This document shows, one piece after another, positions 62,701 to 64,000 of a stretch of DNA of 64,000 bases. Each line of letters starts with the position of its first letter. Positions within the stretch are counted from its first letter, which is position 1. The position numbers were made by a program. The stretch comes from Phyllobates terribilis (Eukaryota), in NCBI RefSeq assembly GCF_046119375.1, contig NW_027362790.1, forward strand, positions 6,386,001 to 6,450,000. The letters run 5' to 3'.

Positions 62701-64000
62701 CCTCCTCCTCCATGCTTCACGGTGGGAACCAGGCATGTAGAGTCCATCCGTTCACCTTTTCTGCGTCGCACAAAGACACGGTGGTTGGAACCAAAGATCT
62801 AAAATTTGGACTCATCAGACCAAAGCACAGATTTCCACTGGTCTAGTGTCCATTCCTTGTGTTCTTTAGCCCAAACAAGTCTCTTCTTCTTGTTGCCTGT
62901 CCTTAGCAGTGGTTTCCTAGCAGCTATTTTACCATGAAGGCCTGCTGCACAAAGTCTCCTCTTAACTGTTGTTGTAGAGATGTGTCTGCTGCTAGAACTC
63001 TGTGTGTCATTGACCTGGTCTCTAATCTGAGCTGCTGTTAACCTGCGATTTCTGAGGCTGGTGACTCGGATAAACTTATCCTCAGAAGCAGAGGTGACTC
63101 TTGGTCTTCCTTTACTGGGGCGGTCCTCATGTGACCCAGTTACTTTGTAGCGCTTCATGGTTTTTGCAACTGTACTTGGGGACACTTTCAAAGTTTTCCC
63201 AATTTTTCGGACTGACTGACCTTCATTTCTTAAAGTAATGATGGCCACTCGTTTTTCTTTACTTAGCTGCTTTTTTCTTGCCATAATACAAATTCTAACA
63301 GTCTATTCAGTAGGACTATCAGCTGTGTATTCACCTGACTTCTGCACAACACAACTGATGGTCCCAACCCCATTTATAAGGCAAGAAATCCCACTTATTA
63401 AACCTGACAGGGCACACCTGTGAAGTGAAAACCATTTCCGGTGACTACCTCTTGAAGCTCATCAAGAGAACGCCAAGAGTGTGCAAAGCAGTCATCAAAG
63501 CAAAAGGTGGCTACTTTGAAGAACCTAGAATATAAGACATATTTTCAGTTGTTTCACACGTTTTTGTTAAGTATATAATTCCACATGTGTTAATTCATAG
63601 TTTTGATGCTTTCAGTGTGAATGTACAATTTTCATAGTCATGAAAATACAGAAAAATCTTTAAATGAGAATGTGTGTCCAAACTTTTGGTCTGTACTATA
63701 TAATCAAAAGATGTCAGCAGAACATCGGATGGAGTCAGTTTATTATCTGCAATGGAGCAGCTTAACATTGTATGTACCTTTGACATTGCTATGTAGTCCA
63801 AACCATCAGAGCAGTTAAAGACCACACACTGCACGGCCAGCGCCTTGGCCAAATCTTTGGTGGTCTCAGTTTTTCCTGTGCCGGCCGGACCTTCTGGAGC
63901 TCCACCAAGATTTAGATAAAAAGCACCGATCTACCAATGAAACATGAAAGAACTGGTATGAAATATCAATAATAATTGCTAATAAGTTTCATGCATCATA

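What the first reader, a model, noticed from the sequence alone, without database searches (positions are those of the whole stretch)
63778..63930. Dynein heavy-chain P-loop exon with no visible downstream exon for over 63 kb
The exon is intact with canonical splice sites. The next expected peptide (FFKGLA..GAWACFDEFNRI) was not found by eye anywhere downstream on the minus strand. Possible explanations: a giant TE-filled intron hosting a same-strand zinc-finger gene; the exon lies in the N gap; the gap joins unrelated contigs; or this is an orphan duplicated exon.
Basis: partly seen in the sequence, partly recalled or inferred. Interest (0 to 1): 0.65.

Follow-up and report, generated by a model that had tools for sequence, protein, structure and literature searches.

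The report
Frog DNAH12 exon, giant repeat-filled intron
This is a genuine exon of a frog's cilia and sperm-tail motor gene (DNAH12), followed by at least 62 kb of transposon-filled DNA and one assembly gap; this is ordinary for a large frog genome.

Summary
Window 63778-63930 (minus strand) is a 51-codon exon with AG/GT borders that encodes the AAA1 P-loop of an axonemal dynein heavy chain. Pfam AAA_6 scores E 8.8e-21. The peptide is 51/51 identical to DNAH12 of six frog species and carries a serine seen in 12 of 12 frogs and 0 of 8 other vertebrates. I therefore take the window for anuran, not human.

No other dynein-coding piece exists anywhere in the window on either strand (tblastn with 12 references; two profile searches over 3055 six-frame pieces).

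The 406-N run can hold at most 135 codons, and 2647 residues are still due, so the gap alone cannot explain the absence.

The downstream 62 kb consists of Tc1/mariner, hAT and LINE copies, satellites, and a same-strand 22-finger C2H2 terminal exon. A young Tc1 element starts 76 nt after the donor site, and the N run cuts its far inverted repeat.

- Best reading: a real, giant, transposon-filled intron (about 0.55).
- Main rival: a wrong or incomplete join at the gap (about 0.3).
- Minor rival: an orphan exon copy (below 0.1).

Published poison-frog genomes report such introns. The finding is already known in kind and of low interest.

The parts
63778..63930 (-). DNAH12 exon encoding the AAA1 Walker A (P-loop) segment. 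It has 51 codons and phase 0/0 borders. The acceptor AG is at 63932-63931 and the donor GT at 63777-63776.
63702..63777 (-). First 76 nt of the downstream intron, single copy within the window
62086..63701 (-). Tc1/mariner element. It has HTH and DDE_3 transposase pieces, and the reading frame is interrupted once. Its terminal inverted repeats of about 255 nt are 97% complementary. The N run cuts the far repeat, and by symmetry about 20 nt of it fall inside the run.
61680..62085 (.). Run of 406 N (an assembly gap or a deliberate mask). I did not fill it.
60665..61150 (-). Fragment of a different, older Tc1-like transposase (DDE_3, below the Pfam cut-off). The 61151-61679 stretch next to the gap has no copy elsewhere in the window.
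51535..55225 (-). hAT-like element: a 1064-aa ORF with a BED finger, plus a separate ORF with the hAT dimerisation domain
39170..41472 (+). Second hAT-like/BED ORF, 40% identical to the first over 578-589 aa
17842..19449 (+). ORF1 of a LINE-like non-LTR retroelement (the reverse-transcribing, virus-like stretch). It has no Pfam family above cut-off.
19900..23770 (+). ORF2 of the same LINE-like element (endonuclease plus reverse transcriptase). It is broken twice: one in-frame stop and one frameshift.
2006..8951 (-). Degraded second LINE-like copy of the same clade. ORF1-like, endonuclease-like and RT pieces are 40-52% identical to the first copy. A Tc1 DDE_3 piece lies inside it at 6132-6500.
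49121..49564 (+). Third reverse-transcriptase fragment
9963..12161 (-). C2H2 zinc-finger ORF of 732 aa on the same strand as the dynein exon. It has 22 intact fingers at 28-aa spacing and no ATG before residue 475, so it is a terminal exon. AATAAA/ATTAAA signals lie 36 and 166 nt after the stop.
24370..27416 (.). Two further Tc1-like copies: 24370-25388 on the + strand and 26337-27416 on the - strand
33214..34202 (+). Internally deleted copy of the same Tc1 family as the exon-adjacent element, 94-95% identical
28122..29320 (.). G+C-rich 30-nt satellite of about 33 copies. It accounts for the long spurious ORFs on both strands here.
30913..33207 (.). 151-nt satellite, about 14 copies
36208..38224 (.). 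373-nt tandem and inverted repeat block
41963..45742 (.). 133-nt, 52-nt and 421-nt tandem arrays. The 421-nt array has 335-nt inverted arms that are 99-100% identical.
55311..56345 (.). 115/224-nt tandem array

Best explanation
The 153-nt segment is the authentic exon of a frog DNAH12 gene (inner-arm axonemal dynein heavy chain 12). It encodes the Walker A loop of AAA1, the main ATP-hydrolysing site of the motor. It is spliced at a phase-0 donor (AAG|GT) into an intron that runs at least 63.7 kb to the low end of the window. The next exon lies beyond coordinate 1.

The intron has been inflated by repeated insertion of Tc1/mariner, hAT and LINE elements and by satellite arrays. It also holds, on the same strand, the terminal exon of a C2H2 zinc-finger gene.

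Shown: exon identity, splice dinucleotides, absence of other dynein coding sequence, and the repeat content. Inferred: that the two sides of the N run are truly adjacent, that the rest of the gene follows further downstream, and that the exon is spliced and expressed.
For: - Exon identity: AAA_6 at E 8.8e-21. DNAH12 is the best paralogue. The peptide is 51/51 identical to DNAH12 of 6 of 12 anurans, and Ser50 occurs in 12/12 anurans and 0/8 other vertebrates.
- Exon borders: the peptide starts and ends exactly where similarity to all references starts and ends. An in-frame stop lies upstream, and AG/GT borders are present.
- Copy number: the exon and its near flanks are single copy in the window.
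- Repeat content downstream: 18 of 70 ORFs scanned carry transposase, RT or endonuclease domains. 23,999 of 63,594 non-N bases (38%) are repeated within the window.
- Taxon: named relatives of a TE protein come from dendrobatid frogs (3 of 4 hits).
- Literature (passages read): in Oophaga pumilio introns 'commonly exceed 20 kb' and are saturated with TEs (PMC6278860). Dendrobates tinctorius orthologues are up to 207.8% longer than those of Xenopus tropicalis because of intronic TEs (PMC11152451).
- Local misassembly does not remove the need for a long exon-free stretch. Any inversion or re-ordering would still leave at least 61.7 kb without dynein exons on either strand next to this exon.
- Strand of the large LINE: the near-full-length copy is antisense to the gene, the commoner orientation inside introns. 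This is established knowledge and only one data point.
Against: - The gene disappears exactly where the only N run sits, 1.7 kb from the exon. The run begins inside the inverted repeat of a multi-copy Tc1 element, a classic place for a wrong or incomplete join.
- If the join were right, a single gap could lie anywhere in the 64 kb. Falling in the first 2 kb has a chance of about 3% (my arithmetic).
- A same-strand gene-like ZNF terminal exon with poly(A) signals inside an intron is less usual than an opposite-strand one.
- An intron above 63 kb would be in the upper tail even for a 6-10 Gb frog genome. This is my estimate, not measured here.
- Nothing downstream of coordinate 1 or upstream of 64000 could be seen, and no frog genome collection was available.
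Confidence: 0.55

Rival explanations
1. Assembly artefact at the N run. The exon-bearing contig (62086 onward) is joined to a contig (1-61679) that is not its true neighbour, or far more than 406 nt is missing. The real intron is then of ordinary size, and the 61.7 kb of repeats and the ZNF exon belong elsewhere.
For: - The gap edge lies within the terminal inverted repeat of a Tc1 family that has another 94-95% identical copy in this same window. Tc1 elements number in the hundreds of thousands in a poison-frog genome (897,264 annotated in D. tinctorius, PMC11152451).
- All dynein signal stops at the gap.
- The left flank shares no repeat family with the right flank at the DNA level.
- The left part carries a gene-like ZNF terminal exon, as an intergenic or ZNF-cluster region would.
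Against: - Apart from this run the window is contiguous through 99-100% identical 335-421-nt repeats. That suggests a long-read assembly, in which distant misjoins are uncommon (inference).
- The operators state that an N run may be a deliberate mask, in which case there is no join at all.
- A merely local order or orientation error does not help, since no dynein exon lies on either strand of the left part.
Confidence: 0.3
2. Orphan exon. This is a recently duplicated or stranded copy of the P-loop exon (a segmental duplicate or the remnant of a broken gene copy). It is not part of the working DNAH12 gene, which lies elsewhere.
For: It is the only dynein piece in 64 kb. It sits in a very repeat-rich setting.
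Against: - The peptide is 51/51 identical to DNAH12 of frogs from six distant families and keeps an open frame with intact AG/GT borders. A neutral copy would have to be very young.
- The exon lies outside the neighbouring Tc1 element, 76 nt from its end, so it is not carried by that element.
- A processed copy would not keep intron borders at both ends.
Confidence: 0.07
3. The missing coding sequence is simply hidden in the 406-N run, so there is no long intron.
For: One exon of ordinary size could fit in about 386 nt once the roughly 20 nt of Tc1 repeat are set aside.
Against: 406 nt hold at most 135 codons, while 2647 residues follow this exon in the D. tinctorius orthologue. None of them is encoded in 1-61679. 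An exon in the run would only shift the long exon-free stretch by one exon.
Confidence: 0.03

Closest known systems
DNAH12 (dynein axonemal heavy chain 12) of anurans, e.g. Dendrobates tinctorius P0134, Rhinoderma darwinii P0132, Bombina bombina P0125
   Same: The exon peptide equals residues 1265-1315 (P0134, P0132) or 1261-1311 (P0125) at 51 of 51 positions, including the anuran-only Ser at position 50 and the GPAGTGKT Walker A motif.
   Different: Those proteins run to about 3960 residues. The window encodes none of the other residues.
Mammalian DNAH12 in solved axoneme structures (PDB 8j07 chain g1, 9fqr chain PW)
   Same: 49/51 identical. The match falls in the AAA1 ATP-binding segment, residues 1263-1313 of 3960.
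   Different: Two substitutions near the exon's 3' end (I/L and S/G), which argues that the window is not mammalian or human.
Very long transposon-filled introns of large amphibian genomes (Oophaga pumilio, Dendrobates tinctorius, axolotl)
   Same: An exon is isolated among Tc1/mariner, hAT, LINE and satellite DNA. The papers report genes 'fragmented into single exons' and introns that commonly exceed 20 kb (PMC6278860). They also report gene length rising with genome size (PMC11152451).
   Different: Here the far end of the intron was not seen, so its length (at least 63.7 kb) and even its continuity across the N run are inferred.
Genes nested in introns of a host gene
   Same: A gene-like C2H2 terminal exon lies within the presumed intron.
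   Different: It is on the same strand as the host. Its 5' exons and start codon were not found, and expression is unknown.

Membership tests
Dynein heavy chain, AAA1 module (Pfam PF12774 AAA_6) | Profile match above the curated cut-off | tested here: met
   74.7 bits against a cut-off of 25.2, E 8.8e-21, profile positions 27-76 of 327
Dynein heavy chain, AAA1 module (Pfam PF12774 AAA_6) | Walker A motif GxxGxGKT | tested here: met
   GPAGTGKT is present in the translation
Dynein heavy chain, AAA1 module (Pfam PF12774 AAA_6) | Rest of AAA1 (Walker B and the following segments) and AAA2-6 encoded at the locus | tested here: not met
   No further dynein-like piece within the window. Sequence beyond the window could not be examined.
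DNAH12 orthologue (rather than DNAH3, DNAH7, DNAH1 or DNAH6) | Closer to DNAH12 than to other heavy-chain paralogues | tested here: met
   97.2 bits for DNAH12 against 85.2 (DNAH3), 82.6 (DNAH7), 81.8 (DNAH6) and 74.5 (DNAH1). 51/51 identical to six anuran DNAH12. The test rests on 51 residues only.
Functional spliced exon | Canonical AG and GT at the points where similarity begins and ends, with an open frame | tested here: met
Functional spliced exon | Spliced to neighbouring exons in RNA | not testable with these tools
   No transcript or read data were available
Giant intron | Next exon collinear on the same strand of the same continuous sequence | not testable with these tools
   The window ends before any further exon, and no frog genome collection was on hand
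Giant intron | Continuity of the sequence between the exons | tested here: inconclusive
   One N run of 406 bases lies 1.7 kb from the exon. Its right edge falls inside a Tc1 inverted repeat.
C2H2 zinc-finger gene nested in the intron | Array of intact C-x2-C-x12-H-x3-H fingers in one open frame | tested here: met
   22 motifs at 28-aa spacing and 16 TGEKP-type linkers. Pfam zf-H2C2_2 scores E 1.8e-179.
C2H2 zinc-finger gene nested in the intron | Start codon or 5' exons and an N-terminal effector domain | tested here: not met
   No ATG before residue 475. 0 of 3 minus-strand ORFs of at least 95 aa between 12.8 and 15.8 kb gave a Pfam family. Small exons were not searched.
Retrovirus-like provirus (LTR element with gag, pol, env) | gag, protease, integrase or env domains, or long terminal direct repeats | tested here: not met
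   0 of 70 ORFs scanned carried such families. The 20 largest of 35 direct-repeat families were all tandem arrays. RT occurs only with an AP-type endonuclease, as in a non-LTR LINE.

The most novel reading that the evidence does not exclude
In this frog the intron after the DNAH12 P-loop exon is really longer than 63 kb. The polymerase must then read through a same-strand, intact 22-finger C2H2 terminal exon with its own poly(A) signals. That would make this a nested same-strand gene, or a source of prematurely ended or chimeric dynein-ZNF transcripts that stop right after the Walker A loop.
Probability: 0.1. Interest if true: 0.3.

Novelty: already known. Interest (0 to 1): 0.1.

Why it matters
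It matters little beyond annotation. It is one more example of how transposon growth stretches genes in large frog genomes, and of how a single gap in a repeat can make a 75-odd-exon gene appear to vanish. For annotators, the practical point is that this exon must not be dropped or called a pseudogene merely because its neighbours lie outside a 64-kb view. The join at 61680-62085 also deserves a check before the DNAH12 model of this assembly is trusted.

Tried and rejected
- Candidate exon at 14081-14182 (-). tblastn gave E 0.065 with a marsupial isoform and 0.31 with Xenopus. It shows 5-6 of 36 ungapped identities, has no splice sites, and is not hit by the closest frog orthologues. Rejected as chance.
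- Apparent extension of the exon into the intron. tblastn alignments ran to 63748, and with one grenadier-fish model to 63613. All 16 references examined continue with the same conserved peptide, which the window does not encode there. This is read-through noise.
- Fish origin. I suspected it at first from the Tc1 element, but the anuran-only serine and the 51/51 matches reject it.
- Long ORFs at 28.2-29.3 kb and across the N run. They are artefacts of a G+C-rich 30-nt satellite and of the Ns.
- Looking for the source genome's own DNAH12 model through cluster membership. 
- Collections. No frog genome collection exists among the tools. The flanks of the window therefore stayed unchecked.
- Supplements of the two frog genome papers were not opened. 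Intron-length tables there might sharpen the prior.

Full report
**What is at the coordinates.** On the minus strand, 63930 to 63778 is a 153-nt open segment. A pyrimidine-rich tract ending in AG precedes it, and GTACAT follows it. An in-frame TAG lies directly upstream. It translates to 51 residues containing GPAGTGKT. Pfam places it in AAA_6, the 'hydrolytic ATP binding site of dynein motor region' (74.7 bits against a cut-off of 25.2, E 8.8e-21). Among solved structures the best chains are DNAH12 (97.2 and 96.6 bits, 49/51 identical, residues 1263-1313 of 3960). These sit ahead of an unnamed AAA+ ATPase-domain chain (88.8 bits), DNAH3 (85.2), DNAH7 (82.6), DNAH6 (81.8) and DNAH1 (74.5).

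**Whose gene it is.** A protein search with the exon and a second one seeded with the Pelobates cultripes DNAH12 fragment, residues 520-700, gave named orthologues. I compared 20 of them. The window's peptide is 51/51 identical to DNAH12 of 6 of 12 anurans: Bombina bombina, Spea bombifrons, Rhinophrynus dorsalis, Rhinoderma darwinii, Dendrobates tinctorius and Pyxicephalus adspersus. It is 49-50/51 identical to the other six. The serine at exon position 50 is present in 12 of 12 anurans. It is absent from all 8 non-anurans: two caecilians, two salamanders, a lungfish, a gar, a mouse and a turtle. A search with the 1064-aa BED/hAT ORF of the window returned four proteins. Three are mis-fused gene models of dendrobatid frogs (Ranitomeya imitator twice, Phyllobates terribilis) at 75-82% identity over 10-13% of the query. 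The fourth is a seahorse ZBED4 at 26%. I therefore take the window for a frog, probably one with a large genome, and not for human. Nothing was handled as human sequence.

**Is anything else of the gene in the window?** No.
- tblastn with 7 named references found the exon alone below E 0.05 in 7 of 7.
- tblastn with 5 full-length anuran DNAH12 at word size 2 found only the exon in 5 of 5 (E <= 1.6e-26), with the next best hit at E 0.31.
- I ran two profiles with all HMMER filters off against 3055 six-frame pieces of at least 12 aa. One covered up to 900 residues after the exon (11 references) and one up to 400 residues before it (8 references). Their top scores were 4.9 and 4.7 bits (E 0.99 and 1.6).
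- The peptide that follows the exon is nearly invariant in all 16 references examined, so it would not have been missed.
- By my arithmetic, a 20-residue exon at full identity would give about 45 bits, or E near 1e-5 in this search space. Micro-exons could escape, but 2647 residues cannot all be micro-exons.
- The only recurring weak spot, 14081-14182 (-), is chance.

Only one exon exists, so it was searched by itself.

**The gap.** One N run, 61680-62085 (406 bases), lies 1.7 kb downstream of the exon. I did not fill it. It can hold at most 135 codons, about 5% of what is still due, so 'the exon is in the gap' cannot remove the long exon-free stretch.

The right edge of the run falls inside a Tc1/mariner element that occupies 62086-63701 on the minus strand. 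The element has HTH and DDE_3 transposase pieces. Its inverted terminal repeats, 62086-62340 and 63427-63681, are 97% complementary. By symmetry its last roughly 20 nt lie inside the run (coordinates only). The same family has a 94-95% identical, internally deleted copy at 33214-34202. The element ends 76 nt from the donor site, so the exon is not part of it. The left flank of the run (61151-61679) has no copy in the window. Further left lies a fragment of a different Tc1-like transposase.

**What fills the rest.** Seventy ORFs of at least 95 aa were scanned with Pfam. Eighteen carry mobile-element domains:
- DDE_3 in 6
- Tc3-type HTH in 4 (one below cut-off)
- RVT_1 in 4
- AP-type endonuclease in 1
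- BED finger in 2
- hAT dimerisation domain in 1

One ORF is a zinc-finger array. None shows gag, protease, integrase, capsid or envelope families.

The reverse-transcribing, virus-like sequences are LINE-like non-LTR elements:
- A near-full-length copy lies on the plus strand: ORF1 at 17842-19449 and ORF2 at 19900-23770. ORF2 is broken twice, by one in-frame stop and one frameshift.
- A degraded copy of the same clade lies on the minus strand at about 2.0-8.95 kb, with a Tc1 piece inside it.
- A third RT fragment lies at 49121-49564.

I only describe these elements.

Two hAT-like elements are present, at 51535-55225 (-) and 39170-41472 (+). They are 40% identical to each other. There are four further Tc1 copies and at least six satellite blocks. 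In all, 23,999 of 63,594 non-N bases (38%) are repeated inside the window itself. The exon with 63702-64000 is single copy there.

**The zinc-finger ORF.** 9963-12161 (-), 732 aa, has 22 intact C2H2 motifs at exact 28-aa spacing and 16 TGEKP-type linkers. It has no ATG before residue 475, and poly(A) signals lie 36 and 166 nt after the stop. It looks like the terminal exon of a ZNF gene on the same strand as the dynein exon. It is 59-64% identical in the finger array to a Phyllobates terribilis protein. Its 5' exons were not found.

**How it most likely works.** The exon supplies the Walker A loop of AAA1, the principal ATP-hydrolysing site of dynein. This follows from the Pfam family description and established knowledge. 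DNAH12 is an inner-arm axonemal heavy chain. The abstract start of PMC11949491, seen in the listing, links its loss to sperm flagellar defects in humans and mice.

I consider it most likely (0.55) that the exon is the working one. Its downstream intron would be real, longer than 63.7 kb, and inflated by transposons. Passages I read state the following:
- Dendrobates tinctorius orthologues are 39.8-207.8% longer than those of Rana temporaria and Xenopus tropicalis.
- Over three quarters of that genome is repeats, with 897,264 annotated Tc1 copies (PMC11152451).

**Results against that reading.** The gene vanishes exactly at the only gap, and that gap starts in a multi-copy repeat, which is what a wrong or incomplete join would look like. 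A same-strand ZNF terminal exon is an unusual intron tenant.

Weighing priors, my rough estimate is that about 1-3% of introns in such genomes are this long. That is of the same order as the share of scaffold gaps that are wrong. What tips the balance:
- A local inversion or re-ordering would not help, because no dynein exon lies on either strand of the left part.
- The rest of the window is contiguous through 99-100% identical repeats of 335-421 nt, which suggests a long-read assembly.
- The N run may be a mask rather than a join.

I give the misjoin 0.3, an orphan or very recent duplicate exon 0.07, and 'everything is in the gap' 0.03.

**Comparison and novelty.** The exon is a member of a known gene (DNAH12). 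The setting is a known phenomenon, the transposon-swollen introns of large amphibian genomes. Nothing here is a new kind of system, so interest is low (0.1). The boldest reading the evidence allows is a same-strand nested ZNF gene, or premature or chimeric termination just after the P-loop exon (probability about 0.1, interest 0.3 if true).

**What stayed unchecked.**
- The flanks of the window.
- The content of the N run.
- Any transcript evidence.
- The closed collections viral contigs and metagenome contigs.
- The supplements of the two frog genome papers.

Noticed in passing
window 47541-47660 (+): A 120-nt stretch reaches the Rfam gathering score for eukaryotic SSU rRNA (63 bits against 50, E 2e-14). 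It is aligned to model positions 28-600, so it is a short rearranged rRNA-derived fragment far from any rDNA unit.
   Followed up: no
window 35661-35808: An interstitial array of telomere-like units (GGGTTAGGGTTGTGCTA, about 8 copies), inside repeat-rich DNA.
   Followed up: no
window 52019-55213 (-), residues 131-316 of the ORF: The part of the 1064-aa BED/hAT ORF that precedes the BED finger is 75-82% identical to pieces of three dendrobatid gene models annotated as CCDC80-like, chromo-domain and zinc-finger proteins (P0121, P0122, P0124). Those models probably include transposon-derived exons. In P0124 this piece forms the N-terminus of a 735-aa ZNF protein whose finger array resembles the window's ZNF ORF.
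   Followed up: partly
window 43694-45742: A 421-nt tandem array (about 4 copies, 99-100% identical) is followed by an inverted copy with 335-nt arms 100% complementary. This very young palindromic repeat block could form a large hairpin.
   Followed up: no
window 28122-29320: A 30-nt G+C-rich satellite (58% G+C in the 2-kb bin, about 33 copies) is open in several frames on both strands and yields spurious 300-360-aa ORFs with weak 'extensin-like' Pfam matches below cut-off.
   Followed up: yes
window 5894-6900 and 50165-51363: Two regions 44 kb apart share a 278-nt inverted match at 96% and ORF pieces at 75-93% identity. They are copies of one further unnamed repeat family next to Tc1-like pieces.
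   Followed up: no
window 45733-46635 (+), 38551-39300 (+), 48194-48859 (-), 2006-2635 (-): Four ORFs of 210-301 aa have no Pfam family at E <= 0.01 (E <= 0.001 for the first two) and no paralogue in the window. Their origin is unknown; they may be unclassified transposon proteins.
   Followed up: partly
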